A DNA stretch of 49,995 nucleotides. Source: a phage. Under the pieces are notes generated by a model. The model did not search any database and was not told the DNA's origin. It worked only from the letters and a program-made list of their open reading frames with translations. Within the stretch, counting starts at the first letter, position 1, and the number at the start of each line of letters is the position of its first letter. The translations under genes and the position numbers were made by a program. The stretch lies in sequence record NC_105507.1. One strand, 5' to 3'. Of this stretch, positions 18,024 through 36,539 are shown piece by piece.

Positions 18024-18287
18024 ATGGCTAACAAGATCGAATTTTTCAAAGCGGTAGACATTATTGATGGTGCTCCTAGCTTCTTTGCCATCCATTCCAT
18101 TGACGGCAAGGATATTGGGTACAACGTTATCCGTCGAGATGGAATCTCAAAACTTAGCGATCTGGTAGGGCATATTGTGTCAAACGGGAAGTGCGCATGG
18201 CCCGATTCGCCACGAGAGCCACGCCGCCTCGACATGGTAGAGCCTGTTCTGCTTTACACTCTGGTAGTAGAAGGAGAAAATAAATGA
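18024..18287 (+). CDS. hypothetical protein
   Basis: GAGG RBS. Confidence 0.5.
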   Translation: MANKIEFFKAVDIIDGAPSFFAIHSIDGKDIGYNVIRRDGISKLSDLVGHIVSNGKCAWPDSPREPRRLDMVEPVLLYTLVVEGENK

Positions 18288-18469
18288 TTTGGTTACTTGC
18301 TTTTTTGGTTGTTTTTCTTTACATTTCAGGCTTGTTTACGTTCCGCGCGTTGGTGAAATATTCTGACGCGACAGACAAAGACGATAAAATCGTTCTCGCT
18401 TTCTGGTTTGTTTGGGTGTGGTTAGCAATTTACGAGATCATCAGAGACAAACAGAAATTTGAGTGGTGA
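18284..18469 (+). CDS. small membrane protein
   Basis: hydrophobic 61-aa ORF, ATGA overlap. Confidence 0.45.
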   Translation: MIWLLAFLVVFLYISGLFTFRALVKYSDATDKDDKIVLAFWFVWVWLAIYEIIRDKQKFEW

Positions 18470-18528
18470 TTCTTGCTATGGCGCATTCATGCAGTGCGCC
18501 ATGTTGAGAAAACCTAAAGGGGGAGACG

Positions 18529-18648
18529 ATGCGTAACTTTGAAAAAATCATTACCAAAAAGAAGCGTCGCGGGTACGATGAGCATGTGGAGCTTGTGAAA
18601 GCAACGCAAGAAGCGCAACGAAGACAAGAAGCGCGGGAAAAAATTTAA
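18529..18648 (+). CDS. small basic protein (39 aa)
   Basis: below track cutoff; GGGGGAG RBS; preceded by perfect inverted repeat ATGGCGCA..TGCGCCAT. Confidence 0.3.
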   Translation: MRNFEKIITKKKRRGYDEHVELVKATQEAQRRQEAREKI

Positions 18649-18678
18649 TGCGATTTTTCGCTATGGAGATCATTAATC

Positions 18679-19269
18679 ATGAAGCGAGACATTATCATCC
18701 TTAATGGGCCGCCAGGTTGCGGGAAGGACACTATTGCAGCTTACCTAACGGGCCATCGTTACCCAGCGGTTAAGGCGTCATTCAAACAGCCGATGTTCGA
18801 TATTGCGTTTTCCATGCTTGGCCCGACTCGATATGATGAGTTTATTGACCTGTACAACGACCGAGAGCAAAAAGAAAAGCCTCAAGTTATCTTAGGCGGC
18901 AAGTCACCTCGACAATTCATGATCTGGATTAGCGAGGATGTAATGAAGCCAGTCTTTGGGGAGCAGTATTTCGGGCGTCGAATGGTTGAAGAGATTAACG
19001 AGATGTACCGAGATTTGACGGTTGTGATCAGTGATGGCGGATTCCCCGAAGAAATCAAGCCGCTTGTTAAGGCAGGGCATGAAGTGCATATTTGCCGATT
19101 GCATCGCGACGGCTTCACGTTTGCTGGCGATTCGAGAGACTACATTGACCTGAGCGGTTATCACTATCGAATCCATCACTATGACTTCCACTTGCAGGAC
19201 GGCAAGCCGGAACTGGCTGTAAACGAGATCGTCAATGCTGTCAAATGGAAGCACACACAGATTAAATAG
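18679..19269 (+). CDS. P-loop nucleotide kinase (dNMP kinase-like)
   Basis: P-loop GPPGCGKDT resembling the GKDT loop of phage dNMP kinases; GGAG RBS. Confidence 0.7.
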   Translation: MKRDIIILNGPPGCGKDTIAAYLTGHRYPAVKASFKQPMFDIAFSMLGPTRYDEFIDLYNDREQKEKPQVILGGKSPRQFMIWISEDVMKPVFGEQYFGRRMVEEINEMYRDLTVVISDGGFPEEIKPLVKAGHEVHICRLHRDGFTFAGDSRDYIDLSGYHYRIHHYDFHLQDGKPELAVNEIVNAVKWKHTQIK

Positions 19270-32417: not shown

Positions 32418-33083
32418 ATGCACTTGCCTAATGGTTCTCAAATTTTCATCGGCGTTAATATGGGTGATCCGATTCAGGCTACGGCTATTTCAAATGCTGA
32501 TGATCCTGTTTTTACGACTGCAAAAAACACTCAAAGCATCAAAAAAGGCGCTTATGTTCTTATTGAAACATCTTCCTGGGGCAAACTTGTTAGTCGCGTG
32601 CTTCGAGTTAAGGAGGTATCAGATGATGCAAGCGTTACTCTTGAGGGTGTAAGCACGAAAGACACCAATGTTTTTCCGGCTGGTTCTAATACCGCAACTT
32701 TCCGAGAAGTGAAATCTTGGGTAGAGGTTCCTTGCGTACAGGATCTTGCGCAGGACGGCGGCGAGCAACAGTATTACACTTATCAGTGTTTGGCTGATGA
32801 CCAAGAGCAGCAGTTACCGACCTACAAGAGCGCGGTTTTTCTTACCTACACTTTCGCTCATGAATATGATAACCCGATTTATCCGATCTTGCGCGAGGCT
32901 GATGAATCCGGCGACGTAACCGCTTTGCGTATGTACGTGCCGAAAGCTAAAGAGATGCGTTGCTGGGCTGGCGTATTGTCTTTTAATGACATTCCGCAAA
33001 CAACTATGAACGAAATGGAAACTGTTTCCCTTTCTGTATCTCTGAAAGGCCGATTCACGTTCTTACCTTCCGACGTTAAGTAA
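32418..33083 (+). CDS. major tail protein
   Basis: lambda V position, followed by terminator, GGAGG RBS. Confidence 0.65.
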   Translation: MHLPNGSQIFIGVNMGDPIQATAISNADDPVFTTAKNTQSIKKGAYVLIETSSWGKLVSRVLRVKEVSDDASVTLEGVSTKDTNVFPAGSNTATFREVKSWVEVPCVQDLAQDGGEQQYYTYQCLADDQEQQLPTYKSAVFLTYTFAHEYDNPIYPILREADESGDVTALRMYVPKAKEMRCWAGVLSFNDIPQTTMNEMETVSLSVSLKGRFTFLPSDVK

Positions 33084-33088
33084 AACAA

Positions 33089-33110
33089 GGGGGCGTTGCG
33101 CCCCTTTTTT
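33089..33110 (+). terminator. rho-independent terminator
   Basis: GGGGCG/CGCCCC stem plus T6. Confidence 0.7.
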
Positions 33111-33168: not shown

Positions 33169-33183
33169 TAAGGAGATCTTAAG

Positions 33184-33501
33184 ATGGCAAAGATGAAACT
33201 AACGTTAGGCCCACTGCCTGATTTTAAGCTGCCTGTTTCTTTCGTGCTTCCAAATGGTGATGAGCAAGTTATTGTTTTTACCGTGCGCCACAAGAAGGCA
33301 AGCGAAATTCACGAACGATACACGGCAGAAAAGCCGATGAGCGACGTAGAAATGATCACCTTCCTTGCTTCCGGTTGGGATCTGGAAGATGAATTTAACG
33401 AGGAAAACGTTGCTAAATTGCTGGATTATTACCCGTCTGCGTCATTATCGCTGACTGGTCATTATATGAAAGCACTTGCGGGGCAGCGGGTAAAAAACTA
33501 A
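33184..33501 (+). CDS. tail assembly chaperone (lambda G-like)
   Basis: position upstream of tape measure; AAGGAG RBS; slippery site near 3' end. Confidence 0.8.
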   Translation: MAKMKLTLGPLPDFKLPVSFVLPNGDEQVIVFTVRHKKASEIHERYTAEKPMSDVEMITFLASGWDLEDEFNEENVAKLLDYYPSASLSLTGHYMKALAGQRVKN

Positions 33502-33818
33502 AGCGGGCGGTTTACCTGTTTTACCTCAAGCCGCCAACTGACGCACAATTAGAGGCCGTCGGCCTATCCCGTTCAGACTACGAAGGGGAGGATCCGCCGG
33601 AGGTAATTTTTGATGAATCAATGTTTCAATCTTGGGATCTGTTTTGCGCTATGCAGACGCAATGGAGATCGACTAGCGGCAGTGTGTATGGGTTCGACTA
33701 TAACGTTTTGCCTATGCTTTTTGACATTTACAAGATTGAGGATCGGGAGATGGCGCTAAATGATTTGCGCATCATGGAACAAAAGGCGCTAGAAATGATT
33801 CATTCAAACAAAACATAA
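33184..33818 (+). CDS. tail assembly chaperone frameshift product (G-T-like, -1 frameshift)
   Basis: A_AAA_AAC heptamer at 33492-33498 one codon before stop; -1 frame stays open to 33818. Confidence 0.7.
33492..33498 (+). other. -1 programmed ribosomal frameshift slippery heptamer
   Basis: AAAAAAC in X_XXY_YYZ register relative to chaperone frame; GGCGG..CCGCC hairpin just downstream. Confidence 0.7.
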
Positions 33819-33857
33819 GCGCCGCGAGGCGCTTTTTTAATATCTGGAGGTTTTAAA

Positions 33858-36539
33858 ATGGCTGAAAAATACGCTGGCCTAACGCTAGGCGTTGACGTGT
33901 CGCAGGTCAACAATGCTGTTAAATCATTGCAGCAATTCAAGAAGGCAAACGACGACGCAAAAAAAAGCGTTAATGAATTTGTTGATTCTGAGGTTGTGGC
34001 CCGACAGCAAGCAAAACAGCTTGCCGAAGAACTGGCGCGCCAGAAAGCAGAATTTAAGAAAATCCAGGAGTCAATTGATCCCACTGCATCAAAGATGGAT
34101 AAGCTGCGAAAGGCAGCGACACAGCTTGATGCGCTATGGAAAAAGGGCGTTGTTCCTGATCAGACTTTTTTTGAGCTTGGGGCAATTCTTGAGACGCAGC
34201 AAAACAAGCTGATCGCAACCAAAAAAGCGATGACAGAGGAAGGCCGCGCGGCGCTTGAGGAATCAAAGAACAAGGCGCGTGCAGCGGAAGAGGCTAAAAA
34301 ATTCGTCCAGGCTTTGCGTGAGCAGGAAGAAGCAGCAGGAAAAAGCAAGTCTGAATTGCTGGAAATGAAAGCGGCACAGCTTGGAGTTAGCCAGGAGGCA
34401 GCACCTTACATCGCAAGGCTGAAAGAGCAGGAAAAGCAGATCCAGAAACTTGGGATTTCTACAGGCCAATACAAACAAGCAATGGCGCAATTGCCAATGC
34501 AGATCACAGACGTGGTGACTTCACTTGCTTCTGGTATGCCAGTTTGGTTGGTCGCAGTCCAGCAGGGTGGACAGATCAAGGATTCTTTTGGTGGTGCATC
34601 CAATGCTTTAAAAGCGTTGCTATCTTTCCTGAATCCGGTAAACGTGGCGTTTGGCTTGCTTTCCGGCACACTGGCAATTGCTGCATATAATGCCTACAAA
34701 GCACAGACAGAGCTTGAGGCAATTAAAAAAACCGTTCAGGAAACAACTGGCTTGAGTGGTGAGTTTGCCGAAAAGATTGCTATAGGAATCCAGGAGCTTT
34801 CCGACAAGACAGGCGAAAGCGCCGAAGATCTGGCAAAGGCTTACATAACAACGAAAGACGGCGCGAGCGAGGCGATTAAAAAACTGGTTGACGTTGGCAT
34901 GACTTATGATGACGCAAAAAAGAAAGTCAACGAGTACAAGGGCGCGTCTAGCTTTGTCAGCTTGAATAACGAAATTGCAAACCACAAAAACAAAGTCCTT
35001 GAGTTGGGCGATTCGTGGTATGAGGTTTTGAAAGCGAAGCGTGATTACGCTTCCCCGTCCGGCGGCCTGTTAGGTAAGGAGCTTGGCTATGTTAACCCTA
35101 TGCTTAAGTTTGCACTTAACACTTATGAAGACATTGGAAAGGTCGTAAAAGATGCGAATAAGGACATGGCGGAACGAGCGGAGCGAATCGACAAAGAAAA
35201 CCTGGCCTTAAACAGAGTGCGCGCAGCACAGGAGGCTTTAAACAAAGCCATTGAGGATCAGAAAAATGTGGCGCGTTCGGCTGATGAAGAACTGAAAAAG
35301 CGCGCGGCTGAAAACGTGGAGTTTAGGCGCAAAGAGCTTGAGGAAATCAAGAAGCAGGAGCAGAAAAAGAAAGAGGCTAAAGGTGGAATAGTTCGCGGCC
35401 CGACTGAGCAGCTTGATAAAGAGTTGTACGTTTTAAAAGCGCAACTGGAGATGCTTAAAGAGCATCGCACTGTTAACGATGTTATTTCTCGCCAGCGTAA
35501 ATCATTATGGAGTATCGAAAAGCAGATCGAGATCCTGGAGGAAGCGCAGAGCAAGCGTAAATTGACCGGAGCGGAACAGGCGCTACTAAACGAGCAAAAG
35601 GCCGTTCTTGAAATGGCAAGACAAAAAGCTGAGCTAGGGGATCAGATTGTTTTGCAGGAGCGCAAAAACAAGCTGGAGCAAGATAGTCTTAAGTTTATCC
35701 GTGAAACTGAGGCTGCTATTGATGCGATTGGCCTTAAGCAACTTGGCTACACTGAAAAGCAGATCGAGCGTGAGCTAGAGTTACGCAAGCTGCGCACCGA
35801 CTACGAGGCGCAAGGCGGAAGCGTTAGCGACGAAGTTTTTCAGCAAATGGAGACGAAACTTAAGCTGTATTACCAGGCACAAGACGAGGCGCAAGGCAAC
35901 TGGTTAGCCGGAGCAAAGAACGCATGGGAGCTATTCGCGGAAGATGCAAACAATGCCTATGGCAATGTTCAGCAGATCGCAAGCGAGGCGTTAAACGGCC
36001 TTACAAACCAATTAGCGAATTTTATCGCTACTGGCAAGGCAAACTTTAAAGACTTCTCGACGGCTATCATCAAAATGATTATTCAGATGATCACGAAAAT
36101 GGTCGTCTTTAATGCGTTATCTGGCCTGATGGGTGGTCAAACCTGGACGATGGGGAGCTTGCTTAAGAATATTGGCGGATTTGCTGGCGGTGGATACACT
36201 GGCGACGGCGGGAAGTATGAGCCAGCCGGAATTGTCCATAAAGGTGAATTTGTCATGACGAAGGAGGCGACGCAGCGTATTGGGGTAGGAAACTTGTACC
36301 GCATGATGCGAGGCTATGCTAACGGCGGCGTTGTTGGTAGTTCCGGCTATACTGGCGGTGGCGCTGTAACTGGTGGAGCACCTCAATTTAACATCGGCGG
36401 GATTGATGTTAGCATCAATAACGGCAGCGATCCGAAGGGCATCGAAACTGGTGTTAAGATGATCTTTACTGATATGATTAAACGTTCCTGTATGCAGGGC
36501 GGCGAGGTTTACGAATTTGTTATGAGCAAGCGAGGTTGA
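33858..36539 (+). CDS. tail tape measure protein
   Basis: 893 aa, long coiled-coil Ala/Lys/Glu-rich region, Gly-rich C-terminus, synteny. Confidence 0.9.
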   Translation: MAEKYAGLTLGVDVSQVNNAVKSLQQFKKANDDAKKSVNEFVDSEVVARQQAKQLAEELARQKAEFKKIQESIDPTASKMDKLRKAATQLDALWKKGVVPDQTFFELGAILETQQNKLIATKKAMTEEGRAALEESKNKARAAEEAKKFVQALREQEEAAGKSKSELLEMKAAQLGVSQEAAPYIARLKEQEKQIQKLGISTGQYKQAMAQLPMQITDVVTSLASGMPVWLVAVQQGGQIKDSFGGASNALKALLSFLNPVNVAFGLLSGTLAIAAYNAYKAQTELEAIKKTVQETTGLSGEFAEKIAIGIQELSDKTGESAEDLAKAYITTKDGASEAIKKLVDVGMTYDDAKKKVNEYKGASSFVSLNNEIANHKNKVLELGDSWYEVLKAKRDYASPSGGLLGKELGYVNPMLKFALNTYEDIGKVVKDANKDMAERAERIDKENLALNRVRAAQEALNKAIEDQKNVARSADEELKKRAAENVEFRRKELEEIKKQEQKKKEAKGGIVRGPTEQLDKELYVLKAQLEMLKEHRTVNDVISRQRKSLWSIEKQIEILEEAQSKRKLTGAEQALLNEQKAVLEMARQKAELGDQIVLQERKNKLEQDSLKFIRETEAAIDAIGLKQLGYTEKQIERELELRKLRTDYEAQGGSVSDEVFQQMETKLKLYYQAQDEAQGNWLAGAKNAWELFAEDANNAYGNVQQIASEALNGLTNQLANFIATGKANFKDFSTAIIKMIIQMITKMVVFNALSGLMGGQTWTMGSLLKNIGGFAGGGYTGDGGKYEPAGIVHKGEFVMTKEATQRIGVGNLYRMMRGYANGGVVGSSGYTGGGAVTGGAPQFNIGGIDVSINNGSDPKGIETGVKMIFTDMIKRSCMQGGEVYEFVMSKRG

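What the first reader, a model, noticed from the sequence alone, without database searches (positions are those of the whole stretch)
33492..33498. Programmed -1 frameshift joining the tail chaperone to a downstream ORF
The heptamer A_AAA_AAC lies one codon before the chaperone stop codon, and the -1 frame stays open for about 107 further codons to 33818, immediately upstream of the tape measure gene. This matches the conserved G/GT arrangement of long-tailed dsDNA phages.
Basis: partly seen in the sequence, partly recalled or inferred. Interest (0 to 1): 0.55.

Follow-up and report, generated by a model that had tools for sequence, protein, structure and literature searches.

The report
T1-like phage tail-chaperone -1 frameshift
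This is the usual "G/GT" trick of long-tailed phages: a slippery A_AAA_AAC at the end of the tail assembly chaperone gene lets a few ribosomes slip back one base and add a second domain. It is real and strongly conserved, but already known for T1-like phages.

Summary
AAAAAAC lies at 33492-33498 in the X_XXY_YYZ register of a 105-codon ORF (33184-33501) and directly abuts its TAA stop. The -1 frame then runs 106 sense codons to the stop at 33816-33818, 39 nt before the tape measure gene.

The window is a Warwickvirus (Drexlerviridae, T1-like coliphage). The ORF is a Phage_TAC_4 chaperone and the extension is a DUF1799 domain. One PHROG profile spans both halves.

The heptamer alone is not above chance (26 copies, 22 expected). 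The context is decisive:
- The two-frame layout recurs in about 1,080 phage records.
- In 94 sampled relatives the -1 extension is about 102-110 codons, and 64 of them carry A_AAA_AAC followed directly by a stop.
- Third-codon-position variation switches from frame 0 to frame -1 at the site.
- Two of the heptamer's three wobble bases are invariant in 44/44 sequences and the third in 40/44.
- The extension has no conserved start codon.
- A stem-loop 7 nt downstream is more stable than 99.5% of synonymous recodings.

Homologous frameshifts are already annotated or reported for the T1-like phages Skenny, Stevie and U136B. The four Warwickvirus records I opened omit the join. Verdict: correct, ordinary, an annotation fix. 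The fusion protein itself was not observed.

The parts
32418..33083 (+). Major tail (tube) protein gene, upstream neighbour
   Evidence: Pfam Phage_tail_3 PF08813, E=2.6e-63; phrog_584 major tail protein, E=1.7e-89
33087..33107 (+). Terminator-like G+C hairpin followed by a T run, between the tube gene and the chaperone gene
   Evidence: Consensus scan. The T1 record annotates a rho-independent terminator at the equivalent place
33170..33175 (+). Shine-Dalgarno AAGGAG, 8 nt before the chaperone ATG
   Evidence: Read directly from the sequence
33184..33501 (+). Gene G equivalent: tail assembly (tape measure) chaperone, 105 aa, the product of standard decoding
   Evidence: ORF list; Pfam Phage_TAC_4 PF08748, E=5.2e-31, full length; annotated 'tape measure chaperone'/TfmA in near-identical phages
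33492..33498 (+). Slippery heptamer A_AAA_AAC in 0-frame register (P-site AAA Lys, A-site AAC Asn)
   Evidence: Wobble bases 33492 and 33498 are invariant in 44/44 aligned relatives and 33495 in 40/44, while neighbouring wobble sites have entropy 1.35-1.94 bits. 64 of 94 sampled loci have AAAAAAC followed directly by a stop
33499..33501 (+). TAA stop of G, directly abutting the heptamer
   Evidence: It is TAA or TGA at the same position in all 94 relatives with this architecture
33506..33535 (+). Candidate stimulatory stem-loop: 8 bp (33506-33513 with 33528-33535), 14-nt loop, 7 nt after the heptamer
   Evidence: MFE -13.2 kcal/mol; more stable than 99.45% of 2000 synonymous recodings. The same hairpin with a 6-7 nt spacer is seen in most Tempevirinae/Tunavirinae. 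Stem wobble sites are conserved but there are no compensatory double changes
33498..33818 (+). T-equivalent extension in the -1 frame: 106 sense codons plus TAA, reachable only by the frameshift
   Evidence: Pfam DUF1799 PF08809, E=1.5e-12; phrog_680, E=2.3e-33; phrog_17368 positions 109-211. Third-position variation follows the -1 frame from 33501 on, including the 40 codons before the first ATG
33184..33818 (+). Predicted GT fusion, join(33184..33498, 33498..33818), 211 aa, junction ...AGQRVKN-LKRAVYLF...
   Evidence: Inference from tandem -1 slippage. phrog_17368 (213 positions) matches the G half at 1-107 and the T half at 109-211. A homologous join is annotated in Skenny
33817..33834 (+). 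Terminator-like hairpin plus T run overlapping the GT stop, before the tape measure gene
   Evidence: T1 annotates a terminator at the equivalent place
33858..36539 (+). Tape measure protein gene, 893 aa, downstream neighbour and presumed client of the chaperone
   Evidence: Pfam TMP_2, E=7.8e-36, and Tape_meas_lam_C, E=1.9e-22; phrog_24, E=5e-193

Best explanation
The locus is the tail assembly chaperone pair of a T1-like siphovirus (genus Warwickvirus), expressed by programmed -1 ribosomal frameshifting.

Most ribosomes translate 33184-33498 and terminate at TAA, giving the 105-aa chaperone (the G equivalent, Phage_TAC_4). A minority slip back one base with tRNA-Lys on AAA and tRNA-Asn on AAC, re-pairing on A_AAA_AAC as AAA/AAA. 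They then read CTA AAG CGG... for 106 more codons, giving a 211-aa fusion whose C-terminal half is a DUF1799 domain (the T equivalent). A G+C-rich stem-loop starting 7 nt after the heptamer probably pauses the ribosome and raises the slip rate.

By analogy with lambda: both proteins coat the tape measure protein through the shared G part. The T part recruits the tail tube protein to start polymerisation. The fixed low frameshift rate sets the G:GT ratio. Neither protein ends up in the virion.

Shown here: the heptamer and its register, the open -1 frame, the homology of both halves, the gene order, selection on the heptamer's synonymous sites, the frame switch in the substitution pattern, and the excess stability of the hairpin.

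Inferred: that the fusion is made, its amount, the role of the hairpin, and the binding partners.
For: - Register and frames.
- Families: PF08748 for G, PF08809 for the extension, and flanking PF08813 tube and TMP_2/Tape_meas_lam_C tape measure genes. phrog_17368 spans both halves.
- Breadth: tblastn of the fusion finds 1123 phage records, and 1081 cover at least 80% of it; every listed row that reaches both halves does so as two joined pieces.
- Sample of 16 GenBank plus 80 IMG/VR loci: 94 keep a -1 extension of about 102-110 codons, while the +1 frame is much shorter and variable. 64 have AAAAAAC followed directly by a stop, in 56 distinct contexts.
- No conserved start codon: the first NTG falls at extension codon 5 to 68, yet the peptide LKRAVYL... 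is conserved from codon 1.
- Codon-position entropy is 0.64/0.49/1.35 in frame 0 before the site. After it, it is 0.51/0.37/1.29 in frame -1, including the 40 codons before ATG 33621. Heptamer wobble bases are invariant or nearly so.
- Hairpin: window p=0.0055 and T1 p=0.001 against synonymous recodings. 24 of 45 full-heptamer contexts reach p<0.05, against 0 of 13 non-canonical ones.
- Precedent: the Skenny join 18116..18756 'frameshift product'; statements for the T1-like phages Skenny, Stevie and U136B; AAAAAAC adjacent to the stop in the chaperone of Acinetobacter phage Loki; the lambda mechanism and 30:1 ratio (PMC5009743).
Against: - There is no direct evidence of the fusion protein for this phage or, as far as I found, for any T1-like phage.
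- A_AAA_AAC is reported as much less shift-prone in E. coli than A_AAA_AAG (PMC5009743), so the rate may be low. That fits a roughly 30:1 requirement but was not measured.
- The hairpin shows no compensatory double substitutions. It is absent in Braunvirinae, which keep the same heptamer, so it is not essential to the family.
- Its arms also encode conserved residues (R-A-V and K-P-P).
- Some sister clades lack the canonical heptamer, so the exact slip mechanism may not be the classical tandem slip.
- Four of the four near-identical Warwickvirus GenBank records I opened do not annotate the join.
Confidence: 0.9

Rival explanations
1. Two separate genes. The downstream reading frame is translated on its own from ATG 33621 as a 65-aa protein, as several GenBank records annotate it, and no frameshift is needed.
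For: JLBYU19, the tunus isolate and others annotate a separate CDS equivalent to 33621-33818. An ATG at extension codon 42 recurs in several Tempevirinae and in T1. The 65-aa piece still matches DUF1799 positions 20-80.
Against: - The nearest GGAGG (33598-33602) ends 18 nt before the ATG, too far for a normal Shine-Dalgarno, and it is itself coding.
- The first start codon in relatives ranges from codon 5 to 68 and annotators choose different starts.
- The 40 codons upstream of the ATG show -1-frame codon periodicity as strong as the rest (0.51/0.37/1.29), and the peptide is conserved from codon 1.
- The Pfam domain starts at extension residue 23.
- This reading does not explain the invariant heptamer wobble bases.
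Confidence: 0.04
2. Transcriptional slippage. RNA polymerase stutters on the A6 run (33492-33497) and adds one A to a fraction of mRNAs, which puts the extension in frame. The junction would then read VKK-LKR rather than VKN-LKR.
For: A one-base insertion in the A run gives the same downstream frame. The run is A6 here and A7 in Dhillonvirus relatives.
Against: - Known bacterial slippage tracts are longer, about 9 or more A/T (my own knowledge; not checked in a paper here).
- Sister clades keep the architecture with only A4 (GCA AAA GTY; CAA AAG).
- The constraint is on the codon register and on the C at 33498 (44/44), which matters to a ribosome rather than a polymerase.
- A structured element with a 6-7 nt spacer is typical of ribosomal -1 frameshifting.
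Confidence: 0.04
3. Chance or artefact: a fortuitous heptamer next to a fortuitously open frame, or a sequencing indel splitting one gene.
For: AAAAAAC is no more frequent than expected (26 against 22). Long open -1 stretches after ORF stops are not rare in this window (18 of 112).
Against: The same split, at the same place and in the same direction, is found in about 1,080 independent phage records and in 78 of 80 IMG/VR loci. G always ends with its own stop. The frame switch in the substitution pattern is sharp.
Confidence: 0.01

Closest known systems
Phage lambda gpG/gpGT (G_GGA_AAG -1 frameshift; Levin 1993; Xu, Hendrix and Duda 2004, 2013, 2014, as summarised in PMC5009743)
   Same: The position between the tube (V) and tape measure (H) genes is the same in the lambda record. 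[quoted passage not shown] The presumed function is to set a fixed low GT:G ratio for tail assembly.
   Different: - The Pfam families differ: lambda is Phage_TAC_2 plus Phage_tail_T; here it is Phage_TAC_4 plus DUF1799.
- hhalign finds no homology (probability 0.4%).
- The heptamer is A_AAA_AAC, not G_GGA_AAG.
- Here the heptamer abuts the stop; in lambda five sense codons separate it from the TGA.
- The T part is 106 aa here and about 144 aa in lambda.
Klebsiella phage Skenny CPT_Skenny_038/039 (Webervirus, Drexlerviridae), annotated 'tail assembly chaperone frameshift product'; also Citrobacter phage Stevie and E. coli phage U136B
   Same: True homologues in the same virus family. Webervirus relatives match the window's fusion at about 48-50% identity over 98% of its length. 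Gene order is the same, including the flanking terminators. The frameshift is stated in print.
   Different: Skenny's site is GCA AAA GTT TAA, which is only A_AAA_G and not a canonical X_XXY_YYZ heptamer. The window has the full A_AAA_AAC. The Warwickvirus records I opened do not annotate the join.
Acinetobacter phage Loki gp12/gp13 (PMC5313236)
   Same: [quoted passage not shown]
   Different: The host and phage lineage are different. Homology to the window's proteins was not tested here.
E. coli dnaX -1 frameshift (A_AAA_AAG with flanking stimulators)
   Same: It relies on the single E. coli tRNA-Lys slipping on an A-rich heptamer, helped by a downstream stem-loop (general knowledge; tRNA-Lys discussion in PMC5009743).
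   Different: - The A-site codon is AAC (Asn), reported as much less shifty than AAG in E. coli.
- No convincing upstream Shine-Dalgarno-like stimulator is present: only GGGG at 33480-33483, whose last base, the Gly wobble site 33483, varies freely.
- The purpose is a C-terminal extension rather than early termination.

Membership tests
G/GT-type tail assembly chaperone pair made by programmed -1 frameshift (Xu, Hendrix and Duda 2004 class) | Located between the major tail/tube protein gene and the tape measure protein gene | tested here: met
   PF08813 tube gene at 32418-33083 and TMP_2/Tape_meas_lam_C gene at 33858-36539 flank the locus
G/GT-type tail assembly chaperone pair made by programmed -1 frameshift (Xu, Hendrix and Duda 2004 class) | Two overlapping reading frames, the second in the -1 frame relative to the first and without its own conserved start | tested here: met
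   The -1 frame is open 33417-33818 and the +1 frame closes after 13 codons. The first NTG in relatives falls anywhere from codon 5 to 68
G/GT-type tail assembly chaperone pair made by programmed -1 frameshift (Xu, Hendrix and Duda 2004 class) | Slippery X_XXY_YYZ sequence in 0-frame register inside the overlap | tested here: met
   A_AAA_AAC at 33492-33498 is the only such heptamer in the overlap. Its wobble bases are under selection
G/GT-type tail assembly chaperone pair made by programmed -1 frameshift (Xu, Hendrix and Duda 2004 class) | Arrangement conserved among diverged relatives | tested here: met
   1081 of 1123 phage records cover at least 80% of the fusion. 94 of 96 sampled loci keep the architecture
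G/GT-type tail assembly chaperone pair made by programmed -1 frameshift (Xu, Hendrix and Duda 2004 class) | First product belongs to a recognised tail assembly chaperone family | tested here: met
   Pfam Phage_TAC_4 PF08748, E=5.2e-31, 107.9 bits against a cut-off of 21.1, full length
G/GT-type tail assembly chaperone pair made by programmed -1 frameshift (Xu, Hendrix and Duda 2004 class) | Chaperone adopts the conserved spiral fold (Pell et al. 2013) | tested here: inconclusive
   The single-sequence AlphaFold2 model has mean pLDDT 43.6 and is unusable. No PDB relative was found by sequence profile
G/GT-type tail assembly chaperone pair made by programmed -1 frameshift (Xu, Hendrix and Duda 2004 class) | Fusion protein actually made at a low fixed ratio, required for tail assembly, absent from virions | not testable with these tools
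   Needs mass spectrometry, a western blot, a reporter assay or genetics
Lambda gpG / gpT sequence families (Pfam PF06894 Phage_TAC_2, PF06223 Phage_tail_T) | Sequence match to PF06894 and PF06223, or to lambda GT itself | tested here: not met
   The window proteins hit PF08748 and PF08809 only. Lambda GT hits PF06894 and PF06223. hhalign probability is 0.4%. The window's pair is therefore an analogue in arrangement, not a detectable sequence-family member
Stimulated -1 ribosomal frameshift site (heptamer plus downstream RNA structure, 5-9 nt spacer) | Stable structure at the right distance, beyond what the coding sequence requires | tested here: met
   8-bp stem, 7-nt spacer, -13.2 kcal/mol. 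p=0.0055 against synonymous recodings; recurrent in Tempevirinae/Tunavirinae
Stimulated -1 ribosomal frameshift site (heptamer plus downstream RNA structure, 5-9 nt spacer) | Base pairs supported by compensatory covariation | tested here: not met
   Among 24 distinct sequences the stem pairs are mostly invariant. There are G-C/G-U style single changes but no clear double compensatory changes

The most novel reading that the evidence does not exclude
Across this chaperone family the element that really matters may be a single tRNA-Lys slipping on A_AAR, helped by the neighbouring stop codon or by the hairpin, rather than the classical two-tRNA slip.

The window's full heptamer abuts the stop codon. 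Sister clades keep the same architecture with only A_AAA_G (Webervirus), A_AAG_G (Rogunavirus) or A_AAG plus a stop (Pectobacterium phage Taid). The hairpin is confined to the Tempevirinae/Tunavirinae lineages.

The family would then be a natural series of alternative solutions for tuning one frameshift rate.
Probability: 0.2. Interest if true: 0.35.

Novelty: already known. Interest (0 to 1): 0.15.

Why it matters
The main value is annotation quality. The four near-identical Warwickvirus GenBank records I opened either leave 33498-33818 unannotated or call a truncated 65-aa ORF. Automated labels often name all three genes 'tail length tape measure protein'. The correct record is two products, G (33184..33501) and GT join(33184..33498,33498..33818). 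The result also assigns DUF1799 the role of the T domain of this chaperone family. Biologically it is one more instance of a textbook mechanism. It would interest a specialist only as part of a comparative series of slip-site variants within Drexlerviridae.

Tried and rejected
- **Motif statistics alone.** AAAAAAC is at chance frequency, and in-frame heptamers and long -1 open stretches are common. This was rejected as evidence by itself.
- **Structure of G.** The single-sequence AlphaFold2 model was too poor (pLDDT 43.6) to search for the chaperone fold, so no fold search was run.
- **PDB profile search.** It gave only spurious L20 hits at E of 0.2 or more.
- **NCBIfam.** No family matched.
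- **Homology to lambda GT.** hhalign found none.
- **Looking for an annotated join in close relatives.** JLBYU19, swan01, tunus, tunzivis, aalborv, Henu4_2, RCIP0025, jat, Alina, VAC10 and others have none. One was found only in Skenny.
- **Xu et al. 2004 and 2013.** These papers are not held in the library, so I could not check whether T1 itself was in their table.
- **Upstream Shine-Dalgarno-like stimulator.** GGGG at 33480-33483 is weak and its last base, the wobble site 33483, varies freely. I do not claim it.
- **Compensatory covariation in the hairpin.** None was found.

Full report
**What is in the sequence**

The ORF at 33184-33501 is preceded by AAGGAG 8 nt upstream of its ATG. It ends ...CGG GTA AAA AAC TAA. 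The heptamer A_AAA_AAC therefore sits at 33492-33498 in the X_XXY_YYZ register, with AAA as the P-site codon and AAC as the A-site codon. It is followed directly by the stop at 33499-33501.

The -1 frame is open from 33417. Counted from 33498 (CTA) it runs 106 sense codons to the TAA at 33816-33818. The +1 frame closes after 13 codons. The next gene starts at 33858. The only refinement is that the heptamer abuts the stop rather than lying a codon away from it.

**Is it more than chance?**

The motif alone is not. AAAAAAC occurs 26 times in the window against 22.2 +/- 4.7 expected. There are 51 in-frame X_XXY_YYZ heptamers in ORFs of at least 80 aa. Long open -1 stretches after stops are common, mostly shadow ORFs inside real genes. 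The case rests on context and comparison.

**Identity of the locus**

The 801 bases around the site are 99.9% identical to Escherichia phages tonn, tunus, ityhuna and JLBYU19, and 99.8% to swan01. These belong to genus Warwickvirus, Tempevirinae, Drexlerviridae, the T1-like phages.

Family matches are:

| Feature | Coordinates | Match |
|---|---|---|
| 105-aa product | 33184-33501 | Pfam Phage_TAC_4, full length, E=5e-31 |
| -1 extension | 33498-33818 | Pfam DUF1799, E=1.5e-12; phrog_680 |
| Upstream gene | 32418-33083 | Tail tube protein PF08813, E=3e-63 |
| Downstream gene | 33858-36539 | Lambda-type tape measure protein |

PHROG profile phrog_17368 has 213 positions. It matches the G half at positions 1-107 and the extension at 109-211. 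That profile was evidently built from deposited fused products.

**Comparative evidence**

A tblastn search with the conceptual fusion finds 1123 phage records. In 1081 of them one place covers at least 80% of the query, and every listed row that reaches both halves does so as two joined pieces, one per frame. Identity goes down to about 27%.

I examined 16 annotated loci spanning Tempevirinae, Tunavirinae (T1 itself), Braunvirinae, Rogunavirinae, Webervirus, Dhillonvirus and unclassified phages of Pectobacterium and Pseudomonas. I also examined 80 IMG/VR loci.
- 94 loci keep a G ORF followed by a -1 extension of about 102-110 codons, while the +1 frame is much shorter and variable.
- 64 loci, in 56 distinct sequence contexts, have AAAAAAC followed directly by TAA or TGA.
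- The first possible start codon in the extension falls anywhere from codon 5 to codon 68.
- The peptide LKRAVYL.YQKPPT is nevertheless conserved from the very first -1 codon.

**The frame switch**

In a 44-sequence nucleotide alignment, mean column entropy by codon position is as follows:

| Region | Frame | Position 1 / 2 / 3 |
|---|---|---|
| Body of G | 0 | 0.64 / 0.49 / 1.35 |
| Overlap zone 33417-33491 | 0 | 0.67 / 0.44 / 1.58 |
| 33501-33620, before the first ATG | -1 | 0.51 / 0.37 / 1.29 |
| 33621-33815 | -1 | 0.59 / 0.34 / 1.15 |

Coding constraint therefore jumps from frame 0 to frame -1 exactly at the heptamer.

Neighbouring 0-frame wobble sites have 1.35-1.94 bits. The three wobble sites inside the heptamer have 0 bits (33492, A in 44/44), 0.44 bits (33495, A in 40/44) and 0 bits (33498, C in 44/44). 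The amino acid before the Lys varies (V, A, E, Q) but its third base stays A. This is selection on the nucleotide sequence of the slip site itself.

**A likely stimulator**

Seven nucleotides after the heptamer, 33506-33513 pairs with 33528-33535. The stem is 8 bp with five G-C pairs, the loop is 14 nt, and the energy is -13.2 kcal/mol.
- Against dinucleotide shuffles this is unremarkable (z=-1.3).
- Against 2000 recodings that keep the -1-frame peptide it is in the top 0.55%. T1 and aalborv are in the top 0.1%.
- Across 58 distinct junctions, 24 of 45 with the full heptamer reach p<0.05, nearly all of them Tempevirinae/Tunavirinae with a 6-7 nt spacer. None of the 13 with non-canonical sites do.
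- The stem's wobble sites are held as G, but I found no compensatory double changes.
- Braunvirinae keep the heptamer without the hairpin.

I therefore rate the hairpin as probable but unproven, and as lineage-specific.

**Mechanism**

The shown steps are listed above. The following steps are inferred.
- A small fraction of ribosomes slip -1 on A_AAA_AAC and make a 211-aa fusion with the junction ...RVKN-LKRAV...
- The amount is low. A_AAA_AAC is reported as much less shifty than A_AAA_AAG in E. coli, and lambda needs about 30 G per GT (PMC5009743).
- By analogy with lambda, the shared G part binds the tape measure protein and the T part recruits the tube protein. Both then leave the finished tail.

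The gene is bracketed by terminator-like hairpins at 33087-33107 and 33817-33834. The T1 record shows the same. These may further tune expression relative to the tube and tape measure genes.

**Rivals**

- *Independent initiation at ATG 33621*, as several GenBank records annotate. This is contradicted by the coding signal and peptide conservation upstream of that ATG, the lack of a usable Shine-Dalgarno, and the lack of a conserved start.
- *Transcriptional slippage on A6.* This gives the same frame but is unlikely. Sister clades manage with A4, and the constraint follows the codon register and includes the C at 33498. Mass spectrometry of the junction peptide would settle it.
- *Chance or sequencing error.* This is excluded by the breadth of conservation.

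**Comparison with what is known**

In arrangement and presumed function this is the G/GT system of lambda. In sequence it is not a member of lambda's families. Lambda GT is Phage_TAC_2 plus Phage_tail_T, the window's pair is Phage_TAC_4 plus DUF1799, and hhalign sees no relationship (probability 0.4%).

True homologues with the frameshift already recognised exist in the same virus family:
- Klebsiella phage Skenny carries a joined CDS 'tail assembly chaperone frameshift product' and says so in print (PMC6763657).
- E. coli phage U136B reports a tape measure chaperone made 'via a slipper sequence' (PMC8104045).

None of the Warwickvirus records I opened annotate the join.

**Verdict**

The feature is real, under clear selection, and ordinary. 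The novelty class is 'already known'. The practical value is an annotation correction and the assignment of DUF1799 as the T domain.

The only mildly unusual thread is the diversity of slip sites among sister clades (A_AAA_G, A_AAG_G, A_AAG plus stop, G_GGA_AAC). This hints that single tRNA-Lys slippage may be the common core. I did not pursue it beyond tabulating the sites.

Noticed in passing
L007 689-793, L105 18400-18500 (Webervirus); L013 677-781 (Rogunavirus); L018, L019, L021: Sister clades keep the G / -1 T architecture without the canonical heptamer. Webervirus has GCA AAA GTY TAA, including Skenny, where the join is nevertheless annotated. Rogunavirus has GCA AAG GTC TAA, MUC-5 has CAA AAG CAC TAA, Pectobacterium phage Taid has CAA AAG TAA, and Pseudomonas phage PseuP_222 has G_GGA_AAC TCC TAA. 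In all but PseuP_222 an A_AAR Lys codon is kept at the site, which suggests single tRNA-Lys slippage in some lineages.
   Followed up: partly
window 33087-33107 and 33817-33834: Terminator-like G+C hairpins with T runs bracket the chaperone gene; the second overlaps the GT stop codon. The scan found 6 such sites in 1.1 kb against 1.2 expected. T1 and Skenny annotate terminators at the equivalent places. These may attenuate transcription between the tube, chaperone and tape measure genes.
   Followed up: partly
window 33959-33966: An A8 run in the tape measure gene forms an in-frame A_AAA_AAA heptamer (GCA AAA AAA AGC). A -1 slip there would hit TAA after two codons (AAG CGT TAA). It is probably a meaningless or mildly costly slippery spot.
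   Followed up: no
window 33621-33818 and homologous loci L001, L003, L009-L016: Public annotation of this locus is inconsistent. The T part is left unannotated, or called from various internal ATG/GTG/TTG starts (49-133 aa), or all three genes are labelled 'tail length tape measure protein'.
   Followed up: yes
window 33498-33818 (extension residues about 62-74) compared with lambda T in L106: The only stretch that hhalign aligns between this family and lambda GT is the most conserved DUF1799 motif, YGFDYNVLPMLF, against lambda T SGLTYTVLSLFF. It is not significant (E=0.14, probability 0.4%). It could hint at very remote T-domain homology or be chance.
   Followed up: no
L046 and L087 (IMG/VR contigs); L017 (Klebsiella phage KshKPC-M): Three sampled relatives break the pattern. 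L046 has an early stop after 57 codons from the match start. In L087 the matched frame reads through about 186 codons before a stop. In L017 the annotated ORF reads through the usual stop position in another frame. These may be indels, assembly errors or real fusions; I did not examine them.
   Followed up: no
window 33498-33506: The first -1 codons after the slip are rare E. coli codons (by my own knowledge of codon usage): CTA Leu, forced by overlap with the TAA stop, and CGG Arg (AGG in T1). The Arg wobble G lies in the hairpin stem and is G in 35 of 44 sequences.
   Followed up: partly
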